Shown piece by piece: positions 11,982 through 44,623 of a stretch of 64,000 nt of DNA. The notes under the pieces are model-generated. The model had not been told where the DNA came from. It did no database searches and worked only from the letters and a program-made list of their open reading frames with translations. Within the stretch, counting starts at the first letter, position 1; every line of letters starts with the position of its first letter. Position numbers and translations under genes: made by a program. This DNA is from an uncultured Rhodobacteraceae bacterium (GTDB taxonomy: Bacteria > Pseudomonadota > Alphaproteobacteria > Rhodobacterales > Rhodobacteraceae). The stretch spans positions 65,423-129,422 of the forward strand of contig CALSNT010000001.1 of assembly GCA_943787785.1 (NCBI GenBank), in the 5' to 3' direction.

Positions 11982-12014
11982 GCGGCCCTGCAGATCAGAC
12001 CCTGACGACGGGCC

Positions 12015-14312: not shown

Positions 14313-14360
14313 CGGATCGACGCTCGGCTACGCCATCGCCCCGCCCGCCATCCCGTTTTA

Positions 14361-14392
14361 GCCTCCGGCGGGAGTATTTGCGAAAAGAAGAG
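14361..14392 (+). repeat. Intergenic repeat copy B
   Basis: gcctccggcgGGAGTATTTGcGAAAAGAAGAg, preceded by complementary arms cccgcc/ggcggg. It ends about 10 nt upstream of the livG-like start. Confidence 0.6.
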
Positions 14393-14402
14393 GGGGTGGA
14401 GA

Positions 14403-23993: not shown

Positions 23994-25640
23994 ATGACGA
24001 CAAACCCCCTGAAACTGGCCCTTGCGGGCCTGCTGTTGGCGTGTGCCGCGCCGCTTTGGGCTGCCGATATCGCGCTGGTGATCGGAAATGAGGATTATGA
24101 TGAAATACGCGATCTCAGGCGCGGTGATAATGTCGTCGCTGCCGCTTCCGCGCTGGAACGGGCTGGGATCGACGTGGTGGGCGCGCGCAATGCGGACCTT
24201 TCCGAGCTGCAATCCTCTGTTGCACAGTATGCCCAGATGGCACCAAATGCCGACGGATTGATCGTCGTTTTGTCGGGGCGTTTCATGCATTCCGCGACCG
24301 ACACGTTTTTGCTTCCGGTCGATACCGATCGTCCCGGTATTGCACGGCTGAGTTTCAACGCGCTTCCTCTCTCGACGGTACTGGCGGTATTGTCGGCCAG
24401 TCCCGAACGGGCGGTCCTGGTGTTGGTCGGCGATGGAGAGTCGGATCAGATCGGGGCATATCTTCAAGCCGGCATTGGCCAGCCGACGATTCCCGAAGGC
24501 GTCACCATCGTCAGTGCGAATACGCGTGAAGGCGCGCGCTTTATGCGCGATGTCCTGGCCGCACCGGGTGCCTCGATCCCGGACGCAGTGGGTGCCACGC
24601 GTGGCATGCGTGCTGCGGGCTATCTGCCTGATGGCTTTGCGTTCCTTGAGCTTGAGGACGCACCGGAAATCGATGAAGCGGAAGCCGGGTACTGGGAACT
24701 GGTGCAGGAACTGGACACCATCAATTCCTATCGACGGTATCTTGACCGGTACCCGAATGGCCCTCACGCAGACGAAGCTCAGCAAAGGGTAGATGCCTAC
24801 ACAAACGAACCCAATCGCCGCGCACGGCTGGCCGAGGAAGCGCTGAACCTCACACGTGAACAACGCCAGCAGGTGCAACGGGCGTTGACGATCCTCGATT
24901 ATCGTCCACGTGGCATCGACGGGATTTTTGGCCCCGGCACGCGTGGGGCCATAGCTCGCTGGCAGGATGCCAATAATCTGCGCTCAACGACGTATCTGAA
25001 CGCGGCGCAGACCAATCGCCTGCTGCAACAGGGGCAGGCCCGTGCAGAGGAAATGGAAGCCGCTGCCGAAGCGCGTCGGCTGGAGCTTGAACGACAGGAT
25101 CGCGATTATTGGCGGCGCACCGGCGAGAATGGCGGCGAGGGCAACTTCCGCGCCTATCTGGAACGTTATCCGGACGGGCTCTATGCCGAGATCGCGAATG
25201 CGCGGCTTGAGGCGATTGATGAACGCAAACGCAACCGGGCCGAGCGGCGCGACCGCCGCGCCTGGGAGCAGGCGCAGGAGCTGAATTCGCTCGATGGCTA
25301 TCGCGCCTACCTTAGCGCCTTTCCGAACGGCGTGTTTGCCGATGAAGCGCAAGCACGGGTGAGGGTATATGAAGAAGAAGCGGCCAATGCGAATGCCCTT
25401 GCACGCGCCCGTGCCGAAGAAGATGCGCTGGGTCTCAACCCCGTTACCCGTCAGTTGGTCGAACGGCGGCTGAATGCGCTGGGGCTGAAACCGGGTCGGG
25501 TGGACGGACAATTCAACGAACGCACCCGGCGGGCGATTCGTCGTTTTCAGGATCGGCGTAACCTTCAGGTGACGGGTTACCTGAATGAGCCGACCATGGT
25601 GCGATTGCTGGCCGGTGGGATCATCTCGCTGTTCGAATAG
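23994..25640 (+). CDS. Secreted caspase-fold (C14-like) protein lacking the catalytic dyad, with 3 helical repeats and 2 peptidoglycan-binding (PG_binding_1) domains
   Basis: Signal peptide, then DIALVIGNEDYD. SGRF replaces SGHG and LVGDG replaces LDAC(R). Three repeats: YLDRYPNGPHADEAQQRV, YLERYPDGLYAEIANARL, YLSAFPNGVFADEAQARV. PG-binding motifs: DGIFGPGTRGAIARWQ and DGQFNERTRRAIRRFQ. Confidence 0.7.
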   Translation: MTTNPLKLALAGLLLACAAPLWAADIALVIGNEDYDEIRDLRRGDNVVAAASALERAGIDVVGARNADLSELQSSVAQYAQMAPNADGLIVVLSGRFMHSATDTFLLPVDTDRPGIARLSFNALPLSTVLAVLSASPERAVLVLVGDGESDQIGAYLQAGIGQPTIPEGVTIVSANTREGARFMRDVLAAPGASIPDAVGATRGMRAAGYLPDGFAFLELEDAPEIDEAEAGYWELVQELDTINSYRRYLDRYPNGPHADEAQQRVDAYTNEPNRRARLAEEALNLTREQRQQVQRALTILDYRPRGIDGIFGPGTRGAIARWQDANNLRSTTYLNAAQTNRLLQQGQARAEEMEAAAEARRLELERQDRDYWRRTGENGGEGNFRAYLERYPDGLYAEIANARLEAIDERKRNRAERRDRRAWEQAQELNSLDGYRAYLSAFPNGVFADEAQARVRVYEEEAANANALARARAEEDALGLNPVTRQLVERRLNALGLKPGRVDGQFNERTRRAIRRFQDRRNLQVTGYLNEPTMVRLLAGGIISLFE

Positions 25641-27339: not shown

Positions 27340-29438
27340 GTGCCTATATTGAGCTTTTACAATATTGACCCATTGTCGCTGTTTCCGACAACGGGGCTTC
27401 CATCCTCAGGATTTGTCTATACCGGTCCGGCCAGCCCGACTGGATCTGTTGATATTACCGACAATAGCACCGGCACGGGCGTCGACGAATTTACTGACGA
27501 CAACTCGGGCGAGGGGTCCACGACAGGTATTGTCACTCTGAATGGATCGACGGCCGGCAGCGCCAATGTCGACAATGAAATGTCCTGGACGGTAACTGAC
27601 AGCGTTACCGGTGAGACATTTCAGATCGCTCAGCTTGATGTTGAGGTGGCACGCACGCAGGTGAGTACTTGCTGTCCGAGCAGCCCCTGATCGCAGGGCG
27701 CGCGTACACAATTGAATCCTACGACAGTTTCCCGCAGGAGGGTGAGGCTTCGGTTTTCACCTACGCTGACTATGTGGAATCCGATGGGATCGTCTCTGGT
27801 ACGGCCGGCGCTGACACGATTGACGTTGACTACACGGACGATCCGGAAAACGACCTGATCGACTATGTGACCGAACCGGTCGACCTGAACCTGTCGTGGG
27901 TCGACGACATGGGCGGGGACGAAGCTGATGTTGAAGGCGCCAATCCTGCCGTAGATGTTGGCGGAATTAACGTCACGGTAACGGTTACTGATCACGGTGG
28001 CCTCGACGCTGCCACTGTCGAAGACGATGACCTTCAATATGTCGCGGCGGGCGAACCATTTGAAACAAATTCGGCGCTGTTTCTGGACGGCGCGCGGGGA
28101 TACCCAATCATCCACGACCGCAATCGATTTTGAATCCGTTGCCGGATCGGGATTCGAGGACGCCGTCCAGAACGTCCAGTTCCGCCTGAACGACGTCGAT
28201 ATTGGTGCCTGGACTGATATCGTCACAATCCGTGCTTACGACGCAAACGGAAATCTGCTCACAGATCCGAATGCCGTCATTCTGACACCAGCCGGTGACG
28301 ACACCGTTTCGGGCGACACCGTTACCGGCGTCGGATCCGACGATCATGACGAAATAGGCGGTTCGGTTCTCGTCCAAATTGTCGGTCCGGTCTCGCGGGT
28401 CGAGATCGACTACGATAACTCGTCGAACGCAAACCAGTGGCTATGGGTCACCGACATCCATTTTCAGGCGGTGCCCGAAGGATCATACGATGATTCCGTC
28501 GAAGCCGGTGCGGTGACGACACCATCGACGCCGGGCTGGGTGCCGATACGGTTTATGGCGAAGGTGGCGATGACACCATCCTCGTCGGCAGCGGCGACAC
28601 GGCCTTCGGTGACTTCTCGGAAGGCGACGGGGCCGGAAACAACGACGGTGACGACACCTTTATCATCAATCCGGATCAGCTGACCGGCGATGGCGAAGCG
28701 ATCACCATTCATGGCGGTGAAGCGCTGGATGACAGCGATTTCGACACACTCGATTTCAATGGTCAGTTGCTGGCTGGCTCGATCATCTATTCCGAAACTG
28801 ACCACACTGCCGGGGGCCTCAGCGGCACAGCGGAATTGCTGGACGGCACGATCGTCACCTTCACAGGTATTGAAGAGATTATTTGCTTCGCCAGCGCCAC
28901 CAACATCCTGACAGATACCGGCGAGGTCGCCATCGAACACCTGACCCCCGGCCAGATGATTTCCACCCTCGACCACGGATACCAGCCGCTGCGCTGGATC
29001 GGATCGCGGACTGTCCCGGCACAGGGCAGGATGGCCCCAATCGTGATCCGGGCCGGGGTTCTTGGAAACAAGCGCGACCTGCGGGTGTCACCACAACACC
29101 GGATGCTGATCCGCGGTGCGCAGGCGCAGTTGTTGTTTGGCGAGGATGAAGTGTTGGTTGCCGCCAAGCACCTGAGCAACTGGGATGGGGTGTTCACCGA
29201 TACCGGCGGCGAGGTCGAGTATTTCCACATGATGTTCGACGGCCACCAGATTGTCTTTGCCGATGGCGCGGAGTCTGAAAGTTTCCATCCCGGGACGGTC
29301 GGGATGGGCGCTCTGGAAGAGGCGGCTCGTGACGAGGTGCTTGGTTTGTTTCCAGAACTGGCCACCGATTTGGGGGCCTATGGGCCGACCGTGCGGATGT
29401 GCCTGAAACAGTATGAGGCGCAGTTGCTGGCGATGTAA
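27340..29438 (+). pseudogene. Large Hint (Hedgehog/intein-like) domain protein with RTX-like Ca-binding repeats, 3 frame disruptions
   Basis: Four frame segments (27301..27690, 27669..28133, 27997..28683 and the frame of 28767..29438) join into one protein of about 699 aa. It contains GDDTIDAGLGADTVYGEGGDDTILVGSGD repeats and a C-terminal Hint module (FASATNILTDTGEVAIEHLTPGQMISTLDHGYQPLRWIG...VSPQHRML...HMMFDGHQIVFADGAESESF). Breaks lie near 27643, 28095 and 28511. Confidence 0.8.
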
Positions 29439-29589
29439 GCGCTACGGAACGGTCAATAAACGCACATTTTATCAAGCCCGTAGGCGGTGGCAGCCGGTTG
29501 TGAAATCCGTCGGTTCCTGGCCAGGGGCGACGGCCCGGTGCCGGCCCCGTCGTCCACCGGGCATGAACCAATGGCGCACCGATGGACGA

Positions 29590-32611: not shown

Positions 32612-33928
32612 TCACTGCTCGACCGGCAGGCCGCTCGGGACGGATGTCGGGGTGCCGAGCCGGAAGGCCGGGCTGCGTCGGTCCGTCAGGTGGTGCAGGA
32701 AATGCGAGGATGCGGTCGACCTCGCGGTCGGAGAGCGCCATTGGGGCGAGTTCGTTGGCCTCGGCAATCGCTTCAACTTCGACAGGGTCGGTCGTCGCCA
32801 GGAAATCTTCCGCGCCCTCACCAATCCCGGCAGCACGGCCTGACTGGGATCATAGTCCTTGAGGCTGGCTACTGGATCGAGGTGATGACGCACCACGGAC
32901 TCCAACGAGGCAAAAGCTCCGGCGTGACCGTAGGGTGCGGTCTGGTCGACATTGCGCAGGCTGGGGGTGCGGAAGCGGTAGGCGTCGGCGGCATCACCGG
33001 TGACGCGCATGCGCCCGACGTCGCGGTGATGGCTTTCGAAGCGCGCCGCCTTGCCGGGGCCGATCTGCGGCATGGCGATGGCGTGGAACCGGTGGTCGGT
33101 CTGGAACTGGCCAGAGTGGCAGGTTGAACAGCCCGCTGAGCCATAGAACAGGTCCATCCCCTGTCTGGGCTGAAGCGGTCAGCGCGTCCGCATTGCCGCG
33201 CAGGAACTGATCGAACGGCGCATCGTCGGCGCGCCATTCGAACGCAATGAAATCGGCGATGACGTTGGCGATGTCGGCGAATGTGATCCGGTCCGCACCG
33301 TTCAGCGATGCGAAGGCGTCGGAGTATTCCGGGATCGCGGCGACGCGCGCGGCGATCGCCTCCCATGCGCCGCCGGGTTGCGATAGGAGGCCCTGACGCA
33401 CCAGCCGGGAGATGTCGTTCTCGTTGCCGTGCCCGGCCATTTCGTCGCCGGACAGGACCGGGAACATCGCTTGGGCCGCCAGCACCGAGTCGAACCCTGA
33501 TGACCATGTCTGCGCCCAGCGGGGTGCGGATGCCGCCGGGCTGGTCCGGGGCCGCCTCAAGCCGGCCATCGTGGAACATCACGGTAAATTCGTCGGCCCC
33601 GAGGTTGAACAGGGCCGGGGCGTTTCGGGGCACGCGTTGTTCGGGCAGGTTTGCAGGATCGGCGCGCCGCTCGACAGCCCAGCCCTGTCGCCCCGTCACC
33701 AAGTCCCAACGACAGATCGTCGGACGTTCCGGTGTCGGGATGGTGGCAGGACGCGCAGGAGGTTTGGCGGTTGCCACTGAGGATCGGGTCGTAGAACAGC
33801 AGCTGGCCCAGTCGGATGCGCTCCATATCCGCCTCGGGGAATGTCGCGTCGGCGCGGGGCAGCTCGGCGGCCAGCGCGCCGAGGGCGATGCTTGCCGGGA
33901 TCAGGGCAGCGGTCAGCCGCCGGGCGAT
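32612..33928 (-). pseudogene. Di-haem cytochrome c peroxidase (CCP/MauG family), about 5 frame disruptions; start codon unresolved
   Basis: Haem motifs CASCHH and CSTCHSGQ, with EQRVPRNAPALFNLG, FHDGRLE, AAQAMFPVLSGDEMAG, FRTPSLRNV and APYGHAGAF spread over 4 ORF fragments. A hidden alternate-frame stretch reads IGEGAEDFLATTDPVEVEAIAEANELAPMALSDREVDRILAF. Breaks lie near 33695, 33510, 33165, 32829 and 32703. Confidence 0.8.
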
Positions 33929-33929
33929 G

Positions 33930-35238
33930 TCAGACGAAGCGATTGACGTAGTTCTCCAGAATTTCCTGCCGACCCGAGCGGGGCTGTGGATCGACGCCGC
34001 CACCGTGGACACGCGCATGGATCGCTGCCAGATCGCTGCCTAGCATGGCCTGTGCTTCGGGCGTTTCCCACCCAGCGTAGCGGTCAGCCAAGGCATCCTC
34101 CAGCCCACCGTCCTCGATCATCGCGGCGGCGGCCTTGAGGCCCCGCGCACAGATGTCCATGCCGCCGACGTGGGCGGCGATCAGATCGACCGGGTCCAGC
34201 GACTGACGGCGCAGCTTGGCGTCGAAGTTGGTGCCGCCGGTGCCCAGCCCCCCCGCCTTCAGGATGTGGTAGTAGGCCAGCGCGACCTCGGGTGTGTTGT
34301 TCGGAAACTGGTCGGTGTCCCAGCCCGACTGGTAATCGTTGCGGTTCATGTCGATGGACCCCAGCACGCCGAGGGCGGCGGCGGTGGCGATCTCATGCTC
34401 GAAGCTGTGACCGGCCAGAATGCCGTGACCCTGTTCGAGGTTCAGCTTCACCTCTTTTTCCAGCCCGTACTTCTGCAGGAAGCCGAAGCAGGTCGCGGCG
34501 TCGAAATCATACTGGTGTTTCGAGGGTTCCTGCGGTTTCGGTTCCACCAGGATCGTGCCCTTGAAGCCGATCTTGTGCTTGTAGTCGACGACCATCGTTC
34601 AGGAACCGGCCCATGTGGTCCAGCTCGGCCCCCACGTTGGTGTTCAGCAGTGTCTCGTACCCTTCACGCCCGCCCCAGAGGACGTAGTTCTCGCCGCCAA
34701 GTTTCTGCGTCGCGTCCATGCAGGACTTCACCGTCGCGGCGGCATAGGCGAAGACGTCGGGATCGGGGTTGGTCGATGCCCCGCTCATCCAACGGCGGTG
34801 AGTGAACATATTGGCGGTGCCCCAGAGCAGCTTGACGCCGGTGGCCTCCATTTTGATGCCGAAAAGGTCGGTGATTTCGTCCAGCCGGGCTTCGCTTTCG
34901 GCAAAGCTGTCGCCTTCGGGGCGCACGTCGAGGTCGTGGAAGCAGAAGTAGGGCGCGCCGAGAATTTCGAACAGCTCAAAGGCGACGTCGGCCTTCAGGC
35001 GGGCGGCTCTCCATCGTGTCGCCGAACCAGGGGCGCTCGAACGTTTGCACCGCCGAATGGGTCGCCGCCGGGCCACGCGAAAGCTGTGCCAATAGGCGAC
35101 CGCAAAGCGGAGGTGGTCGGCCTGGGATTTGCCCTGCACCTCGGCTCCGGCGTCGTAGTGGCGAAACGCCAGTGGATTGGCACTTTCGGGCCCTTCGTAT
35201 TTGATCGAGGCAATGTCGTCGAAAAATCCGGTGGGCAT
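33930..35238 (-). pseudogene. xylA: Xylose isomerase, about 4 single-base insertions
   Basis: [29 protein letters not shown]...AYWHSF | [10 protein letters not shown] | [14 protein letters not shown] | [12 protein letters not shown]...GGREGY...RFLN | [24 protein letters not shown]...WDTDQFP. Breaks lie near 35083, 35050, 35008 and 34597. Confidence 0.85.
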
Positions 35239-35408: not shown

Positions 35409-36371
35409 GTGGCAGTTGAACGAAGTGCACGGCGAAATCTGGACGATCTGTTTTGCCGGCTGGCTGATCCGGCAGCTCCGTCAGCGGACGTTGCAGATGA
35501 GCAAATTCCTGATCTCGCGCACATGGCGTCCGATCACAATGTTTCGACGATCCTTTACCGCAAGATCGGGGCTGCGCGGTTGGCAACGTTGGCCCCACAA
35601 CTGGTGGCTGAGGCCGAGGGGCTGACGGCAATCACGTTGCGGCTGGAGTCGTTGCTGCCCCGGCTGCGCGGTGCCTTTGCCGATCATGGCCTTGATCCCA
35701 TCATTGTTAAGGGCCCAGTTTTTGCGGAGCGCCTGTACTCTGATCCCGCAGATCGTCCGTTCACCGACATCGACATCGTGGCGCAGCCAGATGATTTTGC
35801 CGCCATTGGCACAATTCTTGGCGAAATTGGCCTGCATCAGTACCTGAAAGCGAGTTTTGATCGTTCGGAGGCCAATCAGGAACAGAAATGGATCAGCGAT
35901 GCTGACCCCAACTTGTTGATCGAATTGCATGGCGACCTTGTGCATTATCCGGGCTTGCGCCGTAGGGTTCGTTTGGGCCACGCAGAACTGACGGCCCTCG
36001 GCCCTGATGCCACAACCACGCTGTTTCTGACGGCAGTGGCGCATGGTGCACTCGGGCATAAGTTTCATACCCTCCGGCTGGTTCTGGACGTGCTGCAGGC
36101 ATTTCGAGCGTTATCCTTGTCCGAGCGTTCTACCCTGTTGCATCGAGCCAGAGCGGCACGTTTGCATTTGGAAACGCTTCAATCCCTTCAGCTTATCGGA
36201 ACGATGTTTGGCGATAATGATGCGCTCGAACTGGTGCGGTCAGCACGTGGCGGTGGCATCGCGCGATCCTGCATGATTGCCGGGCGGGACGTGCTGTCAG
36301 CACCCGATGCGACGTCGTCAAAGTTACGGCGCCATATGTTTCGCCTCTTCCAGCGCTATTCGGCCCGTTGA
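35409..36371 (+). CDS. Nucleotidyltransferase-family protein (PF14907/NTP_transf_5-like)
   Basis: 320 aa, GTG start. [27 protein letters not shown] fits the KG...R...DIDhhh signature of the uncharacterised nucleotidyltransferase family that accompanies HprK-like kinase/PqqD cassettes. Confidence 0.65.
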
Positions 36372-37358
36372 ATGGTTGCTGCGCTGAGTGCGGTTGTTTT
36401 TTCTGCGGGATTTGTCGACTCCGCGCCGGCATTGGCCGGTTGGCTCGATGCGGGGCACCGGATTTCGGCGGCGGTGTTTCCTGCGACTGCAGAACGCCGT
36501 ATAAAACGTTCCATTCGGTATGATCATCCCGGCTCGATTTGGTCTAGCGGCGGCATACTCCGACGGGGTGCCCCTGAAGCCGAGGTCATTTACCAAGGCT
36601 TAAATTCCGACACGGCGCCGATTGAGGATATGGTGCGGCGTCTGCAGCCCGATTTGATCATTTCGTCGCACTGGATGCGCCGGTTGTCCGGTCGGCTTTT
36701 GTCGCTTGCACGGCTGGGAGGCGTCAATGTGCACCCGGCGTTGCTACCGTATTACCGCGGGCCGGACCCTTTGAATGGGATGATCATGGCCGGGGACCTT
36801 CGCAAGGCTGGCGGCGTAACCTTGCACCAAATGACCGAGCGTTTCGATGAAGGGCCGATCATTGCGCAGATTCCGCTTCGGGAATGCCATTGGACGGATA
36901 GTCTGCAAATGCGCCGAGCGCTTGGAAGTGCTCAATACCAACTGGTCCGCAATGATCTGCACCGGTGGCTTTCTGGTACGATTACGACGTGTCGGCAAAC
37001 GGGCGGGAACTGGCATGACAAGAGCGTCCGGTCGAGCCGGATCGAAGCCACTTGGCCAGCTGAGAGGTTGCTTCCGATTTCACGCCTGCTGCTTCAGAAT
37101 TCGCGGCGATTGCGGGCTCTTTCTACACCAACGGGCCCGATTCCGTTGCCCCAGGTCCTTCGTGTCATTGGTCCGCCGACGGGTGCACCGATCGCGACAG
37201 GGCGAAAATGGTTAGAATTTGACTGCAAAGACGCACGGATCAGGGCGATAGGACGTCGTCGGATTTCTATCGCACTTGAACGCCAGAGAATAAAACGCAC
37301 CCTGAGACGCAGCCTACCGCTGGAGGGACTCGAAAGTTCAACCGATGCCGGACCCTGA
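36372..37358 (+). CDS. Formyltransferase-family protein (Fmt/PurN-like catalytic domain)
   Basis: The ATG directly abuts the upstream stop. GGVNVHPALLPYYRGPDPL matches the N-x-H...SLLPxxRG motif, and GVTLHQMTERFDEGPIIAQ supplies the conserved Asp. Confidence 0.7.
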   Translation: MVAALSAVVFSAGFVDSAPALAGWLDAGHRISAAVFPATAERRIKRSIRYDHPGSIWSSGGILRRGAPEAEVIYQGLNSDTAPIEDMVRRLQPDLIISSHWMRRLSGRLLSLARLGGVNVHPALLPYYRGPDPLNGMIMAGDLRKAGGVTLHQMTERFDEGPIIAQIPLRECHWTDSLQMRRALGSAQYQLVRNDLHRWLSGTITTCRQTGGNWHDKSVRSSRIEATWPAERLLPISRLLLQNSRRLRALSTPTGPIPLPQVLRVIGPPTGAPIATGRKWLEFDCKDARIRAIGRRRISIALERQRIKRTLRRSLPLEGLESSTDAGP

Positions 37359-38363
37359 CGGCGTCAGTGTTGCCTGGGCCAGCGTTTCGCCAAATACCTT
37401 GGCCGCTGACACCAATCCGGCCTGGCCTTCAGGCACAAGCAATTCATAGGCGGGAGTTTTACGGATCAACTCGGTTAAGCAGTCGAGCGCGGCCAGATCA
37501 CGGGCGCCAAGCCCCCCCGCGCTGTGGCGCACGTTGTCTGAAACAAGGCGCGCCAACGCCTCGGCGGCGGGGAGCGCGCGCACTTCTGCTTCGGAACCCG
37601 TCCCGCGCGCCAGCGAGAAGACAGCACCTACGGGCCGTATGACATGCGGAGATATCGGCATGTGTTCGGCCAATAACTCAAGCGGCACCGCGCGCTCTTC
37701 ACGTTTTGACCAATCTGCCGTCCCTGCTAGCCAAGGCAGCATTTCGACGGTTTTGCGGTGGACATTCGGATCGCGGGCAAGTCCCCAGACAAGAAATCCG
37801 TTTTCGTCGGGGTTTGCAGACAGCACGGCTGCATCGTCATTCGCCATGGCGTAACCCGCATGCGCAAGTGCCAGCGTTGTCGTCGTCTTTCCGGTGCCGC
37901 TGGGCGCGAAGACCAACCCGAAAGATCGTCCGTCGCGATCCGCCAGGCAGGCTGCGTGAACCAGCGTCTGCCCTGTGGCTGCAATTGCGGCGTCCATTGC
38001 GTGGACGGACAGATCGAAGCTCTCGGACAGTTTCGCGTTCTCAGCCAAGATCAAGTCGGCTGTTCGCATCGCAGTATCCAGCCGCAGAGAGGCCAGATCG
38101 GGGCGTACGTACCACATCACGGAGCCAGACTCGTGAACGGTGACCGATTTGCCGTCCTGGCCGGAGCCTTCGTGCAGCAGGGTTGCATCGGCGTCAGGCC
38201 CGATTGGCACTCCACGCCAAAGTGAAAGCGTCATCGCCACTGGCAGCTCTTTTTCGCGATTGTGGCGCAGAAGCAGGCCGCCAAATATGGTCGTAGCCCA
38301 GTCTGGCGGGCCAGAGACGTCCAACGTGGCGCTCAAAAGGTCGTAGCGGGCATTGGGGGTCAT
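37338..38363 (-). CDS. HPr kinase-related (HprK-like) P-loop kinase
   Basis: P-loop FAPSGTGKTTTTLALA inside a protein of about 340 aa. Start MTPNARYD forms an ATGA overlap with the B2 stop. Its 3-prime end overlaps the convergent formyltransferase gene by 21 nt. Confidence 0.7.
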   Translation of the reverse strand: MTPNARYDLLSATLDVSGPPDWATTIFGGLLLRHNREKELPVAMTLSLWRGVPIGPDADATLLHEGSGQDGKSVTVHESGSVMWYVRPDLASLRLDTAMRTADLILAENAKLSESFDLSVHAMDAAIAATGQTLVHAACLADRDGRSFGLVFAPSGTGKTTTTLALAHAGYAMANDDAAVLSANPDENGFLVWGLARDPNVHRKTVEMLPWLAGTADWSKREERAVPLELLAEHMPISPHVIRPVGAVFSLARGTGSEAEVRALPAAEALARLVSDNVRHSAGGLGARDLAALDCLTELIRKTPAYELLVPEGQAGLVSAAKVFGETLAQATLTPSGSGIG

Positions 38364-38815
38364 GCAGTCACGGGTCCGGGAAATTCCATCAACTCGGTCA
38401 TGCCGTCCTCCCGATCGCTGATCACCGGGGTGCCATCGAGGCAGACCCAGCAATGGGCGTCCAGCTTCTTTGAGGTCAGGGATTTCTCGACAACGGCAAA
38501 TTTAAGAACCGGGTCAAACCCGGCTTTGCGCAGGTATTTGAAACCAAGCAATCCTCTGCGCATGCAGCGGCGATGGCGCATCAGGATCGGATGCTTCACC
38601 GAGCGGCGCACCCGGCGCAGAATGAAATCCGTGCCAACGCCGCCCCAACGCGGATCGGCAGGCACGTCGGCCCATGCCAGTGCAATGCTCAGGTCCGTTT
38701 CACCAATCTGATAGGGCAGTTTGCGCGCATCGAGCCAGATGTCCCAGCCCAATGACATGCGTCGGGCAACGGGCAGTGTCGGCGATTTTTCAGGCACCCG
38801 CGTCGACGACGACAC
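38360..38815 (-). CDS. Lasso-peptide B2-type transglutaminase-like cysteine protease (PF13471-like)
   Basis: RRCMRRGLLGFKYLRKAGFDPVLKFAV...LDAHCWVCLDGTPVISD has Cys, His and Asp in the spacing typical of McjB-C/B2 proteases. An alternative start is at 38758. Confidence 0.7.
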   Translation of the reverse strand: MSSSTRVPEKSPTLPVARRMSLGWDIWLDARKLPYQIGETDLSIALAWADVPADPRWGGVGTDFILRRVRRSVKHPILMRHRRCMRRGLLGFKYLRKAGFDPVLKFAVVEKSLTSKKLDAHCWVCLDGTPVISDREDGMTELMEFPGPVTA

Positions 38816-39077
38816 CGTCGTTAGCCAGCGGTGAAATCATCTCGATCAAGTCCGGGATCAGCACATCCGGCGTTACTTCAAAATCGTCGGTCATGCGGGT
38901 GGCAATGTCAGACAGGCTCGATGAACCGTCCAGTCGCCCCAGAAAATCCATCGCGGTCTCGTTGCATGTGTAGATCTCGCCTGTCGTTGTCATCAGCACA
39001 ACGCCGGTTTCGCCAACGGCGCGCATGGTCGCACTGGGCGAAAGGGTCAGGACCGAGGTGTCGGCGATCTGGGTCAT
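38790..39077 (-). CDS. PqqD-family protein (RiPP recognition element / lasso B1-like)
   Basis: 95 aa: MTQIADTSVLTLSPSATMRAVGETGVVLMTTTGEIYTCNETAMDFLGRLDGSSSLSDIATRMTDDFEVTPDVLIPDLIEMISPLANDGVV. Typical PqqD topology (beta strands, then L-N-x-T/A-x-x-x-W/L helices). Good RBS (aaggaga). Confidence 0.75.
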   Translation of the reverse strand: MTQIADTSVLTLSPSATMRAVGETGVVLMTTTGEIYTCNETAMDFLGRLDGSSSLSDIATRMTDDFEVTPDVLIPDLIEMISPLANDGVVVDAGA

Positions 39078-39181: not shown

Positions 39182-40597
39182 TTGCCTTTGGCGTGGGATC
39201 AAAACATTGAAGCCTTGTTGGGCGTGGGTTGCCGGTTGAGCGATCATCGCAGGGGGCAGGAACTGGACCGCGACGCGTTGCTGACGCGATCTGCGAAACG
39301 CGCTGCGTGGTTGCTCGAACAAAGATGCGCCCGCGGTGATCGGATTGTGATTGCGGCGCGCGACCCATTGCAGATTGTCGTCGATCTGTTCGCCTGCTGG
39401 CAAGCCGGATTGGTCGCGGTTCTGGTGAATCCGGCGATTGTTGCGGGCGAGCGCCAGCGCGTGACGCAAGCAACCAACGCGAAGCTGTGGGTGGACGAGC
39501 AAACAGCGGAGTCCGAAACTACAGAAATAGCACTTGAGCCTTTGCATCTAAATGAACCTGCGCTGATCTTGATGACATCTGGTACAACGGGTGTGCCAAA
39601 GGGGGTCACTTTGACTCTCGAAGCGCTTCTTGCACGGGTGGGCAGCAACCGGGCGCATATCGGAGACGCGGCATTGGTGCGGACTCTGGCAGTGCTGCCG
39701 GTTTTTTTCGGGCACGGGTTGATCGGGACGATCCTGACGCCTCTGGCCGCCGGAGGGCATGTGACGCTGTGGCCGTCGCCCACGCTGGGCGAGTTGGCGC
39801 GCCTAGGCACGGTCATGGACGAGACCAAGACGACGTTCCTTAGCGGCGTTCCCAGCTTCTGGCGCATGGCTGAACGTCTGTCGCCGCCTCCAAAGACGCC
39901 GCCAACGCAGGTGCATGTCGGATCCGAGGCGCTGAGTTTGGAGTTGTGGCAGGGCATCGCCGACTGGGCCGGGACGCACAATGTGCTGAACATGTACGGG
40001 CTGACTGAGACGGCAAACTGGGTCGGCGGAGCAAGGTTGGATCAGACGGACGGTTCGACGGGGTTTGTCGGTAAGCCGTGGTTGGGAGATATCGCAGTGC
40101 TGGATGATGTCGGATCGGTGCAGAGCCTCGGAACCGGTGAGGTACTTCTACGCAGCGACGCAGTTATGACCGGCATCTGGGACGACCCGCCGGCGAGCAA
40201 GGCGGCGTTCCACGACGGTTGGCTCAGGACAGGTGATATCGGTCAGTTGGACGCGCGGGGGCTCACCCTAAAAGGGCGCCTCAAGTCCCAGATCAATCGC
40301 GCAGGTGTCAAGATATTGGCCGAAGAGGTTGAACAGATGCTGGAACGCCATCCGGACGTGGCCGAGGCGGCTGGTTATTCATTGCCCGACCAGGTGTCCG
40401 GCGAAGCCGTCGGCGCGGCGGTCGTTCTGCAGCCGGGGGCGATGATCACCCCTGAGAGCCTGCGCGACTGGTGCCGGGATGAGGTTCGCGCTGAAGCCGT
40501 GCCAACGCGGATTGCCATTCTGGACGCGCTTGTGCGAAATGACCGGGGTAAACTCATGCGCAATGCGACCCGGGATCTGGTGACCGGCTCCGGCTAA
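39182..40597 (+). CDS. ANL-superfamily adenylating enzyme (acyl/aryl-AMP ligase)
   Basis: LILMTSGTTGVPKGV, YGLTET, WLRTGDIG, GRLKSQINRAGVKI and a C-terminal catalytic Lys context NDRGKLMR. TTG start uncertain. Divergent from the PqqD operon. Confidence 0.8.
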   Translation: MPLAWDQNIEALLGVGCRLSDHRRGQELDRDALLTRSAKRAAWLLEQRCARGDRIVIAARDPLQIVVDLFACWQAGLVAVLVNPAIVAGERQRVTQATNAKLWVDEQTAESETTEIALEPLHLNEPALILMTSGTTGVPKGVTLTLEALLARVGSNRAHIGDAALVRTLAVLPVFFGHGLIGTILTPLAAGGHVTLWPSPTLGELARLGTVMDETKTTFLSGVPSFWRMAERLSPPPKTPPTQVHVGSEALSLELWQGIADWAGTHNVLNMYGLTETANWVGGARLDQTDGSTGFVGKPWLGDIAVLDDVGSVQSLGTGEVLLRSDAVMTGIWDDPPASKAAFHDGWLRTGDIGQLDARGLTLKGRLKSQINRAGVKILAEEVEQMLERHPDVAEAAGYSLPDQVSGEAVGAAVVLQPGAMITPESLRDWCRDEVRAEAVPTRIAILDALVRNDRGKLMRNATRDLVTGSG

Positions 40598-40642: not shown

Positions 40643-41227
40643 ATGAGCTGGATAAACAAACCCCGAGATCCGCATTTTGATCAGGTCCTGCAGACCGACA
40701 GATTCGAATTGCGCCCGCTGACCCTATGGCGAACCTGGCGTCTCGGCGTTGCCAAATGGCTGGACGATCCGGAACTCGCCAATGCAATAACTGCGGCCCC
40801 CTTGCGCGGGTCGCAATGGCGGTTGTATCGGCTGATGTCGAAACCCAATGGTCGCACGCGATTCACCTATGGTATCTTTCCGCGAGGCTCGGACCAGCCG
40901 ATTGGAGTCGAATCCGTCCAATTGCGCAACTATCGCACGGCCAGTCTGGCGGTTCTTATTCATGACCGCGAATGGTGGGGAAAAGGGGTGGTGTCCGAGG
41001 TGCGCGGGCGTGTGATCGATCATTTGTTCGACAGCCCGCGCGTCGGTCGCATTCAGGGGCAGGTCGAAGGGCGCAATTTCGCTTCGATCTTCAACTATCG
41101 CAATCTGGGGTTTGCCCACGTGGGTACGCTGCACCAATGCACCTGGAACACTGCTGAGGATGTCCCGGCAGATCAGTTGATGTTCGAAATGATGGAAGAC
41201 GACTGGCGCAATCGGAGTGAAGCATGA
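40643..41227 (+). CDS. GNAT-family N-acyltransferase (RimJ/RimL-like)
   Basis: 194 aa. RFELRPLT..., then the acyl-CoA-binding-type segment WWGKGVVSEVRGRVIDHLF and NFASIFNYRNLGFAHVG. Confidence 0.7.
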   Translation: MSWINKPRDPHFDQVLQTDRFELRPLTLWRTWRLGVAKWLDDPELANAITAAPLRGSQWRLYRLMSKPNGRTRFTYGIFPRGSDQPIGVESVQLRNYRTASLAVLIHDREWWGKGVVSEVRGRVIDHLFDSPRVGRIQGQVEGRNFASIFNYRNLGFAHVGTLHQCTWNTAEDVPADQLMFEMMEDDWRNRSEA

Positions 41228-41439
41228 CCGCCGAAGTTGCACGGGCGCTGGTCGCCAAGGCGCTGGGCCGCGACACGATAGAGGCTGGCGATGGCCTGGC
41301 GACTTTGGCCGAATGGGACAGTCTGGGTCATATGCACATCGTTCTGGCAATTGAGGCGCAGCGGGGGGAGCGACTGACACCGGAGCAGATCGTCTCGATC
41401 GCGACAGTTGCGGACGTAGTAGCCTTGCTGGATGGCTGA
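41224..41439 (+). CDS. Acyl carrier protein-like (phosphopantetheine attachment site)
   Basis: 71 aa with LAEWDSLGHMHIVLAIE (DSL Ser motif). ATGA overlap with the GNAT gene. Confidence 0.7.
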   Translation: MTAEVARALVAKALGRDTIEAGDGLATLAEWDSLGHMHIVLAIEAQRGERLTPEQIVSIATVADVVALLDG

Positions 41440-41525
41440 TTTGGTTGACGCTGCTGGACACTGCCGGCGTGCTGAGCCATGGATTGGTGAGCCTTATACG
41501 AAATGTTTAGTAGGTGATCTGGCCC

Positions 41526-43097
41526 ATGACTGCTGACAACGATCCGCTGGATATTTTTATCATTGGTGGCGGTATCAATGGCTGCGGCATCGCGCGGGAC
41601 GCGGCGGGGCGCGGCCTGAGTGTGGCGCTGGCTGAAATGAACGACCTCGCATCGGCAACCTCATCGGCTTCGACCAAGTTGTTCCACGGCGGTCTGCGGT
41701 ATCTTGAATACCTCGAATTCAGGCTGGTGCGTGAGGCGTTGATCGAGCGGGAAAATCTGCTGAGTGCGATGCCGCATATCTCGTGGCCGATGCGCTTTGT
41801 GCTGCCTTATCACAAGGACATGCGGTTCGAGGGCGAAACGCCTGTCTCGCGCATCCTGTCCTTCGTGATGCCGTGGATGAAAGGGCGGCGGCCTGCCGCG
41901 ATGATCCGGGCAGGTCTGTTCATGTACGACCATCTAGGTGGGAGGAAAATCCTTCCGCCAACGAAGACGCTGGATCTGCGTACCGATCCGGCGGGCGGGC
42001 CGTTGCAGGATCGGTTTCTCAAGGCCTACGAATATTCCGACTGCTGGATACAGGACTCGCGGCTGGTGTCGCTCAACGCGCGCGATGCGGCGGAGCGGGG
42101 TGCCCGGGTGATGACGCGGACCAAGGTGACCTCGGCCGAGCGGGTGGGCGATCTGTGGCAGGTAACGTTGCAGCGCGAGGATGGCGGCACCGAGACGCTG
42201 AGTGCGCGCGCGCTGGTCAATGCGGGTGGCCCGTGGGTCGAAGATGTGATCCGCAACACGGTGCGCATCAACTCGACCGAAGGCGTGCGGTTGGTGCGGG
42301 GCAGTCACATCGTGGTGCCGCGGCTTTACGATCATGATCGGTGCTATTTCTTTCAGGGCACCGACGGACGGATCATTTTTGCAATTCCATATGAGGATGA
42401 TTTCACGCTGATCGGCACGACCGATCAGGATCAGGAGGGGCCGCCGGGGCCGGTGGAGATCTCCGACGGCGAGATCAAATACCTTTGTGAATTTGTCTCG
42501 GGATATTTGAAACCGCCTGTCACGCCGGAGGATGTGGTCTGGACCTATTCCGGGGTTCGGCCGCTCTATGATGACGGCGCGAAATCCGCGACGGCGGCGA
42601 CGCGGGATTACGTGTTGTCGCTAAACACGGACGGGCCCGCGCCGTTGCTGAATGTTTTTGGCGGAAAGATAACGACGTATCGCAAACTCGCCGAGCACGC
42701 TTTGGAGAAGCTGGCGGACCCTTTGGGATTTTCTGATGCGGGCTGGACGGCGCGGGTGCCTCTGCCGGGCGGCGACTTCCCGGTCGATGGCGTGGCGGCG
42801 CTGCGTTCGAAACTGCTGGCCGACTATCCGTTTCTGGGCGTGGAGCGCGTCAACCGCCTGATCCGGGTTTATGGCACCGATGCTTGGCCGATGCTGGGCG
42901 AAGCGTCCTCGGACGCCGATCTGGGGCGCGATTTTGGCGGGACCATCACCGAGGCAGAAGTGCGCTGGCTGATGGCGCACGAGTTCGCCAAGGGTGCTGA
43001 CGACGTGGTCTGGCGGCGCACCAAGCGGGGCTTGCGGATGAGCGCCGCGCAGATTGCAGCGCTTGATGAATGGATGGTTGAGGCTCGGCAGAGCTGA
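41526..43097 (+). CDS. glpD: Aerobic glycerol-3-phosphate dehydrogenase (FAD)
   Basis: DIFIIGGGINGCGIARDAAGRG dinucleotide fold, SSASTKLFHGGLRYL, about 523 aa, followed by glpK. Confidence 0.9.
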   Translation: MTADNDPLDIFIIGGGINGCGIARDAAGRGLSVALAEMNDLASATSSASTKLFHGGLRYLEYLEFRLVREALIERENLLSAMPHISWPMRFVLPYHKDMRFEGETPVSRILSFVMPWMKGRRPAAMIRAGLFMYDHLGGRKILPPTKTLDLRTDPAGGPLQDRFLKAYEYSDCWIQDSRLVSLNARDAAERGARVMTRTKVTSAERVGDLWQVTLQREDGGTETLSARALVNAGGPWVEDVIRNTVRINSTEGVRLVRGSHIVVPRLYDHDRCYFFQGTDGRIIFAIPYEDDFTLIGTTDQDQEGPPGPVEISDGEIKYLCEFVSGYLKPPVTPEDVVWTYSGVRPLYDDGAKSATAATRDYVLSLNTDGPAPLLNVFGGKITTYRKLAEHALEKLADPLGFSDAGWTARVPLPGGDFPVDGVAALRSKLLADYPFLGVERVNRLIRVYGTDAWPMLGEASSDADLGRDFGGTITEAEVRWLMAHEFAKGADDVVWRRTKRGLRMSAAQIAALDEWMVEARQS

Positions 43098-43126
43098 ATT
43101 TCTGATGGATTTTTGCGGAGGGCACC

Positions 43127-44623
43127 ATGGCCAAGCACATTCTGGCGATAGATCAGGGCACGACGTCCAGCCGGGCGATTGTATTCGATGCGGATCTGAA
43201 AATCGTCGCCTCGGCGCAGGAAGAGTTCGAGCAACATTTCCCCGCCTCGGGCTGGGTCGAGCATGATCCGGCGGACCTGTGGTCGACGGTGCAATCCACC
43301 AGCCGCGCGGCGCTGGAAAAAGCCGGTGTGGCGGCGGGCGACATCGCCGCTATCGGCATCACCAACCAGCGCGAAACCGTGGTGGTCTGGGACAAGTCGA
43401 GTGGCGAGCCGATCCATAAAGCCATCGTGTGGCAGGACCGACGCACTGCTGCGCTATGCCGCGAGTTGGTCGAGGCTGGGCACGAGCCGATGGTGACCGA
43501 GAAGACCGGGTTGCTGCTGGACCCGTATTTTTCAGGCACCAAGTTGAAGTGGCTGCTGGACGAGGTGGACGGTGCGCGGGCGCGTGCCGAGGCCGGAGAG
43601 CTTCTGTTCGGCACCGTCGACAGTTTCCTGATCTGGAAGATGACAGGTGGCGCTCGCCATGTCACAGATGCAACCAACGCGGCTCGAACTTTGCTCTACA
43701 ACGTTCGTGAGGGGCGGTGGGATGTCGAGATTTGCGATCTGCTGGGTATTCCAATGGATATGTTGCCCGCGGTGTTGGACTGCGCGGCTGATTTCGGTGT
43801 GGCTGGGGCCGACCTACTAGGGGCCGAGATACCGATTCTGGGCGTAGCCGGGGATCAGCAAGCGGCGACCGTCGGGCAGGCGTGTTTTCAGGCCGGTATG
43901 TTGAAATCGACTTACGGGACGGGGTGTTTTGCGCTGCTGAATACAGGCGACACGCTTGTGACCTCGCAAAACCGGTTGCTGGGGACAATTGCCTATCAAT
44001 TCGACGGGGTGCCGACCTATGCGCTAGAGGGCTCGATTTTCGTGGCGGGCGCTGTGGTGCAGTGGTTGCGCGATGGATTGAAGATCATCGCGGATGCGAC
44101 CGAAACTCAACCGCTGGCTGAAAGTTCGGATACCGGCCAGGACGTCGTTTTGGTGCCGGCCTTTACTGGGCTTGGTGCGCCGTATTGGCGGCCCGATTGC
44201 CGGGGAGCGGTGTATGGGCTGACGCGCAATTCCGGCCCCGCCGAATTTGCCCGCGCGGCGCTTGAAAGTGTCGGCTATCAGACGCGCGATTTGCTGGAGG
44301 CAATGCAGGCCGACTGGCAAAGAGACGAAACCACCGCCGCTCCGGTGCTGCGGGTTGATGGTGGTATGAGCGCATCTGACTGGGCAATGCAGTTCCTGTC
44401 CGACATCATTGACGCGCCGGTGGATCGACCCGAAGTGCTGGAAACCACAGCGCTGGGGGCCGCATGGCTGGCCGGGATGCGCGCAGGGATCTATCCGGAC
44501 CAGACCGGGTTCGCCGAGACCTGGGCGTTAGAGCGGCGATTCGAGCCTGAAATGGACCAAGCAACCCGTGCCGAGAAATATGACCGTTGGGGGCGGGCGG
44601 TTCAGGCCACCCTCGGGGTTTGA
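43127..44623 (+). CDS. glpK: Glycerol kinase
   Basis: [28 protein letters not shown] and GDQQAA motifs, 498 aa. Confidence 0.95.

What the first reader, a model, noticed from the sequence alone, without database searches (positions are those of the whole stretch)
37338..39077. B1-B2-kinase operon with an intact protease triad but no lasso cyclase partner
The B2 protein keeps Cys (RRCMRRG), His (DAHCWV) and Asp (VISD) in the canonical order. The PqqD protein has a normal length and the kinase has a canonical GTGKTT P-loop, so the proteins look functional. In characterised lasso systems B1/B2 act together with the ATP-dependent cyclase C, and leader cleavage is coupled to macrolactam formation. 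Here the three genes are translationally coupled (26-nt overlap, then ATGA), and the operon ends against the convergent formyltransferase gene with no C gene. Either B1/B2 have been recruited as a stand-alone leader peptidase for a different chemistry, or the cyclase is encoded remotely.
Basis: partly seen in the sequence, partly recalled or inferred. Interest (0 to 1): 0.7.

Follow-up and report, generated by a model that had tools for sequence, protein, structure and literature searches.

The report
Cyclase-free lasso-type peptide maturation cluster
The lasso-style leader-binding protein, protease and kinase are real and intact, but they belong to a widespread, untested proteobacterial pathway that most likely makes very short linear serine-modified peptides rather than lasso peptides.

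Summary
Window 37338-39077 (- strand) encodes a PqqD/RRE protein, a B2 cysteine protease with Cys84/His121/Asp134, and an HprK-like P-loop kinase, with overlapping reading frames. No asparagine-synthase-type cyclase was found in the 64 kb.

The three genes sit inside an eight-gene block: PF14907 nucleotidyltransferase, formyltransferase, kinase, B2, PqqD, acyl-AMP ligase, GNAT and ACP. A betaproteobacterial MAG carries the same block. The PqqD-B2-kinase(-NTase) core recurs in Mesorhizobium and many soil metagenomes, never beside a cyclase.

In relatives I found the substrates: more than 100 small precursors, which NCBI names "putative RiPP precursor". They have a lasso-type leader (MKKTYEKPxLxKREKLSxV[T/V]A) and cores of 5-26 aa (median 9). 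None is lasso-compatible, and 103 of 108 carry a Ser at core position 3-7.

The closest characterised system is the Bacillota "linear polyphosphorylated peptides" (Nat Commun 2026). That system uses a signal-peptidase-like leader peptidase, not B2.

The window and its close relatives hold no precursor. In Mesorhizobium loti the precursor lies about 24 kb from the enzymes, so a remote precursor is plausible here. All eight genes are under purifying selection.

Verdict: a new variant of a known kind. The chemistry is inferred, not shown.

The parts
38790..39077 (-). Discrete RiPP recognition element (PqqD family, 'B1'), 95 aa
   Evidence: PF05402, 41.9 bits. AAGGAGA Shine-Dalgarno upstream of the ATG. 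93% identical to the L001 orthologue, dN/dS about 0.03.
38360..38815 (-). B2-type transglutaminase-like cysteine protease, 151 aa (alternative start at ATG 38758, 132 aa)
   Evidence: NF033537, 41.6 bits against a cut-off of 33, and PF13471. Cys84 and His121 invariant, Asp134 acidic in 9 of 10 homologues. Model pLDDT 79.5. PDB fold hits are weak and not significant, but all to transglutaminase-like proteases.
37338..38363 (-). HprK-like P-loop serine kinase, 341 aa. Start overlaps the B2 stop (ATGA).
   Evidence: Weak TIGR04352/TIGR04355/ScmC hits. PDB profile best matches are HPrK/P 1JB1 and 1KO7. Invariant H136, S155-T162, D176-D177. Model pLDDT 93, PEPCK-like fold. ATGA junction read.
36372..37358 (+). 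Formyltransferase-like protein, 328 aa, convergent with the kinase (21-nt overlap)
   Evidence: PF00551, 71.6 bits. The translation contains N-V-H-P-A-L-L-P and D-E-G-P-I, matching the Asn/His/Asp catalytic motifs of formyltransferases (sequence; motif assignment from my own knowledge). Co-occurs with the triad in L014, L009, L031/L032 and L057. Absent in L004-L007.
35409..36371 (+). PF14907 'uncharacterised nucleotidyltransferase', 320 aa
   Evidence: PF14907, 87.9 bits, full length. The most constant companion of the triad: L010, L014-L023, L031/L032, L057, L102, L111. The translation contains a D-I-D motif.
39182..40597 (+). Acyl-AMP/acyl-CoA ligase family enzyme, 471 aa, divergent from PqqD
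   Evidence: PF00501 plus PF13193. Best NCBIfam match is the FadD7 family, below its cut-off. Orthologues at 48-49% identity sit in the same clusters in L014 and L023.
40643..41227 (+). GNAT acyltransferase (Acetyltransf_3, RimJ/RimL-like), 194 aa
   Evidence: PF13302, 45.5 bits. Orthologues at 42-46% identity in L014 and L023.
41224..41439 (+). Acyl carrier protein, 71 aa, with a DSL motif (Ser33). Start overlaps the GNAT stop.
   Evidence: PF00550, 28.9 bits. Orthologues in L014 and L023.

Best explanation
The three genes are the core of a cyclase-independent RiPP maturation pathway that descends from, or is sister to, lasso peptide machinery.

Inferred mechanism, by analogy with lasso and LPP systems:
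1. The PqqD protein binds the YxxPxL motif of a small precursor.
2. The HprK-like kinase phosphorylates, possibly several times, the conserved Ser near the start of the core.
3. The B2 protease, presented with the leader by PqqD, cuts after the conserved [T/V/A/I]-Ala pair, 17 residues after the Tyr.
4. This releases a 5-16-residue linear peptide, disulphide-bridged in some relatives.

More speculative steps:
- The PF14907 nucleotidyltransferase decorates the phosphate.
- The ligase-ACP-GNAT set and the formyltransferase modify amino groups, for example the N-terminus freed by B2, which a cyclase would otherwise use.

Shown here:
- The gene content and its conservation.
- Intact catalytic motifs and purifying selection.
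- The precursor family in relatives.
- The impossibility of lasso formation for those cores.

Not shown: any chemistry, or the precursor of this particular organism. That precursor is presumably encoded elsewhere in the genome, as in Mesorhizobium loti.
For: Module conservation:
- The eight-gene block is syntenic in Rhodobacteraceae relatives at 65-98% B2 identity.
- It recurs with the same layout in a betaproteobacterial MAG, L014, at 33-48% identity.
- PqqD-B2-kinase, mostly with the NTase, is also found in Mesorhizobium (including M. loti DSM 2626 and M. metallidurans), in L009, L010 and L111, and in soil contigs.

No cyclase:
- None in the window.
- None in the called-gene Pfam tables of L001-L012, L026-L028 and L109-L111.
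- No PP-loop motif in the other loci.

Precursors:
- Lasso-type leader ORFs lie beside the enzymes in L010 (5 copies), L013, L014 (2 copies, between the ligase and PqqD), L016, L023, L031-L034, L050 and L102.
- L016 was found by an HMM built without it (E 1.9e-5).
- The family has 115 protein clusters, many named 'putative RiPP precursor' by NCBI.
- Of 108 distinct cores, the median length is 9 aa, none is lasso-compatible, and 103 have Ser at position 3-7. Position -1 is Ala in 107 of 115.

Remote precursors are normal:
- In M. loti the precursor lies about 24 kb from the enzymes.
- Many metagenome precursors stand alone or in arrays of 2-4.

Functional integrity:
- dN/dS is 0.03-0.18 for all eight genes.
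- The catalytic residues are invariant.

Precedent:
- The LPP family has an RRE, an HprK-like kinase and an NTP transferase, no cyclase, a YxxP leader, and polyphosphorylation of core Ser3. Unphosphorylated precursor is cleaved poorly (PMC13381572).
- In pseudomycoidin, PsmK needs the Asp-Asp pair and PsmN adds hexose to the phosphate (PMC6993621).
Against: - No precursor was found in the 64-kb window, in its intergenic gaps, or within 10 kb of the cluster in any Rhodobacteraceae relative. For this organism the substrate is unknown.
- Kinase assignment rests on weak sequence hits (24 bits against a cut-off of 200) plus fold and motifs.
- The B2 fold search gave no significant PDB match.
- The cleavage site is inferred from lasso leader spacing, which I recall from memory.
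- The roles of the NTase, formyltransferase and ligase/ACP/GNAT are guesses. LppN was inactive in the only experimental test of the analogous system.
- No exporter is conserved beside the cluster.
- Cyclase absence in L013-L025 and L029-L108 was tested only with a PP-loop motif, not an HMM.
- One relative, L010, has an unexplained 525-aa protein with a PP-loop-like SAGYDS motif.
Confidence: 0.65

Rival explanations
1. A conventional lasso pathway whose cyclase and precursor are encoded elsewhere in the genome.
For: - B2 passes NCBI's lasso_biosyn_B2 model.
- Relatives' leaders carry the lasso YxxPxL...T/A-x architecture.
- Precursors of this family are often remote from the enzymes, so remote partners are possible.
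- The genome outside the 64-kb window could not be searched.
Against: - None of 108 cores linked to this leader family could form a lasso.
- No cyclase lies near the module in more than 20 enzyme-bearing loci from several lineages, nor near about 80 precursor loci.
- The module keeps its own conserved partners (NTase, formyltransferase, ligase/GNAT/ACP) instead.
Confidence: 0.07
2. A decaying remnant of a former lasso cluster that lost its cyclase, precursor and exporter and no longer does anything.
For: - No precursor, cyclase or exporter in the window.
- Neighbouring genes (xylA, cytochrome c peroxidase) are frameshifted in the window.
- The kinase and formyltransferase are frameshifted in the 98%-identical contig L008.
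Against: - All eight genes are full length in the window, with dN/dS 0.03-0.18 against relatives at 61-93% amino-acid identity.
- Catalytic residues are intact.
- The same eight-gene layout is kept between Alpha- and Betaproteobacteria.
- The scattered 1-nt indels differ between two 98%-identical assemblies and look like long-read assembly errors.
Confidence: 0.05
3. The module does not act on a small ribosomal peptide in this lineage. It modifies another substrate, such as a protein terminus or a cell-envelope or polysaccharide component, with PqqD as an adaptor.
For: - No precursor in any Rhodobacteraceae locus.
- Several relatives sit in or near polysaccharide loci: L009 among glycosyltransferase, UDP-glucose dehydrogenase and polysaccharide lyase genes, and L032 beside a GNVR/AAA_31 chain-length kinase.
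- LPP and paeninodin clusters are likewise embedded in capsule loci.
- Formyltransferase, ligase/ACP and GNAT are also typical of sugar or lipid modification.
Against: - PqqD is the most conserved protein of the block (dN/dS 0.03). It is orthologous to PqqD proteins that sit directly next to precursors in L014 and L016 (39-43% identity).
- B2 proteases are only known to cut RRE-bound leaders.
Confidence: 0.12

Closest known systems
Linear polyphosphorylated peptides (LPP) of Bacillota (Popov et al., Nat Commun 2026, PMC13381572)
   Same: - Discrete RRE, HprK-like kinase and uncharacterised NTP transferase.
- No macrolactam cyclase.
- Leader with a YxxP RRE-binding motif.
- A modified Ser close to the core N-terminus (Ser3 in LppA; Ser3-7 conserved here in relatives).
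- Frequent neighbourhood of polysaccharide genes.
   Different: [quoted passage not shown] Here it is a lasso B2 cysteine protease.
- LPP has an MsbA-like exporter, and none is present here.
- LPP cores are long (45 aa in the tested case; precursors 35-200 aa), against 5-26 aa here.
- The rest of the leader motif differs.
- The authors state that LPP is restricted to Bacillota, whereas this system is in Alpha- and Betaproteobacteria.
- The ligase/ACP/GNAT and formyltransferase genes are additional here.
Paeninodin/pseudomycoidin-type phosphorylated lasso peptide clusters (PMC6993621)
   Same: - Split B1/B2, HprK-like kinase with an essential Asp-Asp pair, and a PsmN-like nucleotidyltransferase.
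- The precursor can be phosphorylated before processing.
   Different: - Those clusters have a macrolactam synthetase, an ABC exporter and lasso-competent cores phosphorylated on the C-terminal Ser.
- Here there is no cyclase, and the conserved Ser is near the N-terminus of very short cores.
HprK-related kinase A/B with PqqD ('HPr-rel-A system', TIGR04352/TIGR04355) and the SynChlorMet cassette ScmC/ScmD (TIGR04249)
   Same: An HprK-like P-loop kinase paired with a PqqD-family protein. These are the only NCBIfam kinase models that the window kinase touches.
   Different: - Scores are far below the cut-offs (24, 20 and 16 bits against 200, 200 and 125).
- There is no second kinase and no radical SAM genes.
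- A B2 protease is present here.
RiPP-fatty-acid hybrid lipopeptides in which a GNAT transfers an ACP-bound acyl group to the N-terminus of a leader-cleaved core (goadvionin and lipolanthine type; recalled from memory, not checked here)
   Same: Acyl-activating enzyme, ACP and GNAT are encoded beside RiPP maturation genes.
   Different: - No lanthipeptide or avionin enzymes, and no PKS/FAS genes.
- Whether acylation occurs at all here is untested.

Membership tests
Lasso peptide biosynthetic gene cluster | Discrete or fused RRE (B1, PqqD family) | tested here: met
   PF05402, 41.9 bits against a cut-off of 23.4. NF033530 reaches only 22 bits against a cut-off of 70.
Lasso peptide biosynthetic gene cluster | B2 transglutaminase-like cysteine protease with a Cys-His-Asp triad | tested here: met
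   NF033537, 41.6 bits against a cut-off of 33. Cys84 and His121 invariant, acidic residue at His+13 in 9 of 10 homologues.
Lasso peptide biosynthetic gene cluster | ATP-dependent lasso cyclase (asparagine synthase-like, PF00733, SGGxDS PP-loop) | tested here: not met
   - Absent from all large ORFs of the window.
- No PP-loop motif in a plausible ORF.
- Absent from the called-gene Pfam tables of related loci.
- The rest of the genome could not be searched.
Lasso peptide biosynthetic gene cluster | Precursor whose core has Gly/Ala/Ser/Cys at position 1, Asp/Glu at position 7-9 and a tail long enough to thread (about 14 aa or more) | tested here: not met
   0 of 108 distinct cores of the associated precursor family qualify. 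No precursor at all in the window.
Lasso peptide biosynthetic gene cluster | Leader with YxxPxL and a conserved residue at -2 | tested here: met
   Met in relatives only: Y-x-x-P-x-[LV], then [T/V/A/I] at -2 and Ala at -1, 17 residues after the Tyr.
Linear polyphosphorylated peptides (LPP; PMC13381572) | Discrete RRE plus HprK-like kinase, with no macrolactam cyclase | tested here: met
Linear polyphosphorylated peptides (LPP; PMC13381572) | Uncharacterised NTP transferase (LppN) in the core set | tested here: met
   A PF14907 gene lies at 35409-36371 and in most relatives. Direct homology to LppN was not tested, because no LppN sequence was available.
Linear polyphosphorylated peptides (LPP; PMC13381572) | Archaeal-type signal peptidase I (LppS) as leader peptidase | tested here: not met
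   None of the eight cluster proteins has a signal-peptidase domain. The protease is B2.
Linear polyphosphorylated peptides (LPP; PMC13381572) | MsbA-like exporter (LppD) | tested here: not met
   No ABC transporter lies in or next to the block in the window or in L001-L012, L109-L111.
Linear polyphosphorylated peptides (LPP; PMC13381572) | Leader consensus YxxPxVLxHQxIxFETxxS | tested here: not met
   Relatives share only YxxPx[LV]. The remainder is KREKLSxV[T/V]A.
Linear polyphosphorylated peptides (LPP; PMC13381572) | Kinase-dependent (poly)phosphorylation of a Ser near the core N-terminus | not testable with these tools
   Consistent with Ser at core position 3-7 in 103 of 108 cores. Needs mass spectrometry.
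HPr-rel-A system (HprK-related kinase A/B plus PqqD) | Kinase reaches the TIGR04352 or TIGR04355 cut-off | tested here: not met
   24.1 and 19.6 bits against cut-offs of 200.
SynChlorMet cassette | ScmC equivalog score and accompanying radical SAM maturases | tested here: not met
   16.3 bits against a cut-off of 125. No radical SAM gene in the block.

The most novel reading that the evidence does not exclude
A distinct proteobacterial RiPP class in which a lasso B1/B2 pair works without any cyclase. One trans-acting enzyme set matures several dispersed 28-60-aa precursors into 5-16-residue peptides. These carry a phosphorylated, further decorated Ser and, in the eight-gene version seen in this window, an N-terminus capped by acyl-ACP/GNAT or formyl transfer. 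The amine that a lasso cyclase would use for ring closure is diverted to acylation.
Probability: 0.35. Interest if true: 0.75.

Novelty: new variant of a known kind. Interest (0 to 1): 0.6.

Why it matters
- Lasso B2 proteases are regarded as committed to lasso biosynthesis, with cleavage coupled to cyclisation. A large, conserved, cyclase-free family would show that the B1/B2 pair is a portable leader-removal module.
- The 2026 'linear phosphorylated peptide' concept would extend from Bacillota to Proteobacteria, with a different protease and much smaller products.
- The system occurs in cultivable rhizobia such as M. loti DSM 2626 and M. metallidurans STM 2683. The precursors are now identified there, so the chemistry is directly testable.
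- Annotation pipelines that label this B2 'lasso peptide biosynthesis B2 protein' would mislead genome miners.

Tried and rejected
- **Exact-sequence look-up of the window B2.** It found nothing, probably because gene callers chose a different start codon.
- **Precursor search in the window.** I used a regex and two leader HMMs on six-frame translations of the window and of all Rhodobacteraceae relatives. I also read the intergenic gaps by eye. No precursor turned up.
- **L010 525-aa protein as a hidden cyclase.** It has a PP-loop-like SAGYDS motif but no Pfam or PDB match and no homologue in the window. This stays unresolved and does not bear on the window.
- **PDB profile search with B2.** Only spurious hits. 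The Foldseek search of the B2 model gave only non-significant transglutaminase-like hits.
- **Literature.** Three of five searches were unproductive.
- **Plasmid collection.** tblastn with the kinase found no match.
- **Metagenome scan.** The first attempt with the divergent precursor alignment failed for lack of a conserved stretch. A tighter alignment worked.
- **Upstream ligase in Mesorhizobium-type loci.** The 25%-identical ligase is an acetyl-CoA-synthetase-type enzyme and probably just a neighbour. I did not count it as part of the system.
- **L073 PP-loop motif.** It belongs to a molybdopterin oxidoreductase, not a cyclase.
Full report
**1. What is at the coordinates**

Window 37338-39077 (- strand) carries three consecutive ORFs.
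- The first (38790-39077, 95 aa) is a PqqD-family protein: PF05402, 41.9 bits. A strong Shine-Dalgarno sequence precedes its ATG.
- The second (38360-38815, 151 aa from a GTG) matches PF13471. It passes NCBI's lasso_biosyn_B2 model at 41.6 bits against a cut-off of 33.
- The third (37338-38363, 341 aa) has no Pfam family above threshold. It touches only the HprK-related kinase models (TIGR04352, TIGR04355, ScmC), far below their cut-offs. A profile of 21 homologues finds HPr kinase/phosphorylase structures as its best PDB sequence matches, aligned over the P-loop and the following Asp-Asp.

The kinase model is confident (pLDDT 93). It resembles ATP-dependent PEP carboxykinases, the fold group HprK/P is known to belong to (the fold relationship is my own knowledge).

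- B2 Cys84 and His121 are invariant down to 30% identity. Asp134 is Asp or Glu in 9 of 10 homologues.
- Kinase His136, SGTGKTTT 155-162 and Asp176-Asp177 are invariant in 21 sequences.
- The Asp-Asp pair corresponds to the pair whose mutation inactivates the lasso kinase PsmK (PMC6993621).

The gene junctions largely hold.
- The ATGA overlap of B2 and kinase is read directly.
- The 26-nt PqqD/B2 overlap depends on the GTG start. An alternative ATG at 38758 was chosen by a gene caller on a near-identical contig.

No asparagine-synthase-type protein is encoded in the window.
- All ORFs of 400 aa or more, plus ten others, were scanned against Pfam.
- The SGGxDS PP-loop motif occurs in no plausible ORF.

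**2. The unit is larger than three genes**

Convergent with the kinase lie a formyltransferase-like gene (36372-37358) and a PF14907 'uncharacterised nucleotidyltransferase' (35409-36371). Divergent from PqqD lie an acyl-AMP ligase (39182-40597), a RimJ/RimL-like GNAT (40643-41227) and an ACP with a DSL motif (41224-41439).

- The block is syntenic in Rhodobacteraceae metagenome contigs and in a 4.0-Mb MAG contig, GCA_012103375.1. That alone could be phylogenetic inertia.
- A scan of one genome per species with a kinase profile retrieved a betaproteobacterial MAG (L014). It has exactly the same eight genes in the same arrangement at 33-48% identity.
- The same scan retrieved a Mesorhizobium MAG (L023) with seven of the eight genes on one strand.
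- The minimal recurrent module is PqqD-B2-kinase, nearly always with the PF14907 gene. It occurs in eight Mesorhizobium genomes including M. loti DSM 2626, in a clean four-gene operon in L111, in L010, and in soil contigs L031/L032/L057/L102.
- The formyltransferase recurs in L009, L014, L031/L032 and L057. It is missing in L004-L007.

No cyclase appears in any of these neighbourhoods. This was checked with Pfam tables for called genes and with the PP-loop motif elsewhere.

The kinase family is sizeable. It has 270 representatives at 50% identity with E below 1e-30.

**3. The substrates, found in relatives**

In L010, five small ORFs next to the module share the motif Y-x-x-P-x-L-x-K-R-D-K-L. 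The same motif marks small ORFs in these places:
- between the ligase and PqqD in L014 (two copies);
- directly upstream of PqqD in L016, L031-L034 and L050;
- next to the NTase in L023;
- beside the kinase in L013 and L102.

L016 was detected by an HMM built without it (E 1.9e-5).

A profile search of the protein collection returned 115 clusters of such peptides. Many are already named 'putative RiPP precursor' by NCBI in Mesorhizobium and Aquamicrobium.

The consensus is MKKTYEKPVLVKREKLSAV[T/V]A followed by a short variable tail. The spacing from Tyr to the [T/V/A/I]-Ala pair equals that of the lasso leader motif YxxPxLx3Gx5Tx (my own knowledge). A non-Thr penultimate residue has precedent in lasso systems (PMC10368454, abstract).

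Taking the cut 17 residues after the Tyr gives 108 distinct cores:
- length 5-26 aa, median 9, with 98 of 108 at 13 aa or shorter;
- none combines an acceptable first residue, Asp/Glu at position 7-9 and enough length to be a lasso;
- 103 of 108 have a Ser at position 3-7, most often 4 or 5;
- 18 have Cys residues flanking that Ser.

The enzymes therefore act on lasso-type leaders, but the products cannot be lasso peptides.

**4. The window itself has no precursor**

Regex and HMM searches of all six frames found nothing in the window. They also found nothing within 10 kb of the cluster in any Rhodobacteraceae relative. The intergenic gaps are too small or empty.

This is not unusual for the family.
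- In M. loti DSM 2626 the precursor P0108 lies about 24 kb from the enzymes on the same contig.
- In a metagenome scan many precursors stand alone or in arrays of two to four copies, with no enzymes within 10 kb.

The eight genes are not decaying.
- All are full length.
- dN/dS against orthologues at 61-93% amino-acid identity is 0.03-0.18, lowest for PqqD. dS is saturated, so these values are approximate.

Frameshifts in neighbouring genes, and in the kinase of the 97.9%-identical contig L008, are single-base indels. They differ between the two assemblies and look like long-read errors.

**5. Closest known system**

Popov et al. (Nat Commun, May 2026, PMC13381572) describe 'linear polyphosphorylated peptides' in Bacillota.
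- There is no cyclase.
- The leader carries a YxxP motif.
- The kinase polyphosphorylates Ser3 of the core, and leader cleavage is poor without phosphorylation.
- The authors state that LPP and paeninodins are restricted to Bacillota.

The present system shares the logic: RRE, HprK-like kinase and NTase, no cyclase, a YxxP leader, and a Ser near the core N-terminus. It differs in several defining features:
- the protease is B2 instead of SpI;
- no exporter is present;
- the cores are much shorter;
- the rest of the leader differs;
- the hosts are Alpha- and Betaproteobacteria;
- it carries additional ligase/ACP/GNAT and formyltransferase genes.

It also fails the scores for the HPr-rel-A and SynChlorMet kinase families. 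I therefore file it as a new variant of a known kind, not as a member of LPP or of the lasso peptides.

**6. Mechanism**

Inferred, with the shown and unshown parts separated:
1. PqqD binds the YxxPxL leader.
2. The kinase phosphorylates the conserved Ser, possibly iteratively as in LppK and PsmK.
3. B2, with its Cys-His-Asp triad, removes the leader after the -1 Ala.
4. The PF14907 enzyme may decorate the phosphate, as PsmN does with hexose.
5. The ligase-ACP-GNAT trio and the formyltransferase may cap amino groups such as the newly exposed N-terminus.

Only gene content, conservation, motifs and the precursor family are shown here. All chemistry is inference.

An alternative fate of the phospho-Ser is elimination followed by thioether formation with the flanking Cys. 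That is conceivable for the Cys-rich cores, but no lyase is present.

**7. Limits**

- The organism's genome beyond 64 kb could not be searched, so a remote cyclase or a remote precursor cannot be settled for this strain.
- Cyclase absence in many fetched loci rests on a motif, not an HMM.
- The B2 fold search was not significant.
- The kinase assignment is by weak homology plus fold.

Noticed in passing
window 33930-35200 (-) and 32612-34018 (-): Xylose isomerase is split over at least two frames, and a di-haem cytochrome c peroxidase (CCP_MauG) over three ORFs. In the 97.9%-identical contig L008 the peroxidase is intact, but the kinase (1-nt insertion at window 37759) and formyltransferase (at 37004) are broken. 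The indels look like long-read assembly errors rather than true pseudogenes.
   Followed up: partly
L010 7592-9169 (+), with 12033-13148 (-) and 13171-14227 (-): One relative has a 525-aa protein with a PP-loop-like 'SAGYDS' motif directly upstream of PqqD. It has no Pfam or PDB match. The locus also holds a TauD dioxygenase and five tandem precursors whose cores share an Asp at about position 10-12 (for example EPAGTSGIVADK). This may be a different ring-forming or activating enzyme in that sub-branch.
   Followed up: partly
window 41514-44623; L020 about 11895-15054; L032 9569-12690: Glycerol-related genes flank the module in two unrelated lineages: glpD and glpK here, and dihydroxyacetone kinase (Dak1) plus a PEP-utilising enzyme in Mesorhizobium-type loci. 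This may be coincidence, or a hint at the donor used by the nucleotidyltransferase.
   Followed up: no
L009 1-8085; L032 23-1903; L010 15235-20094: Several relatives of the module sit beside polysaccharide genes: glycosyltransferases, UDP-glucose dehydrogenase, polysaccharide lyase and a GNVR/AAA_31 chain-length kinase. This parallels the capsule-locus context reported for LPP and paeninodin clusters.
   Followed up: no
L013 5800-7295: In a Rubellimicrobium MAG contig, PqqD is followed directly by the kinase with no B2 gene between them. A convergent precursor (…KREKLSAVAA|GGSAPLVIK) runs into the contig end. B2 may be elsewhere or dispensable there.
   Followed up: partly
precursor family (P0045, P0065, P0106, P0108, P0112 and others): Eighteen of 108 cores have two Cys residues bracketing the conserved Ser (for example VCAPSKPCG, IVCVSGCPV). 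This suggests a small disulphide or thioether loop around the modified residue.
   Followed up: no
window 23994-25640 (+): A caspase-like Peptidase_C14 domain is fused to peptidoglycan-binding repeats. It is conserved in the relatives L109 and L110.
   Followed up: no
window 28384-29512: This stretch is only 86% identical to contig L008, while the flanks are about 98% identical. It is a locally divergent segment next to the Hint_2/HemolysinCabind gene of relatives.
   Followed up: no
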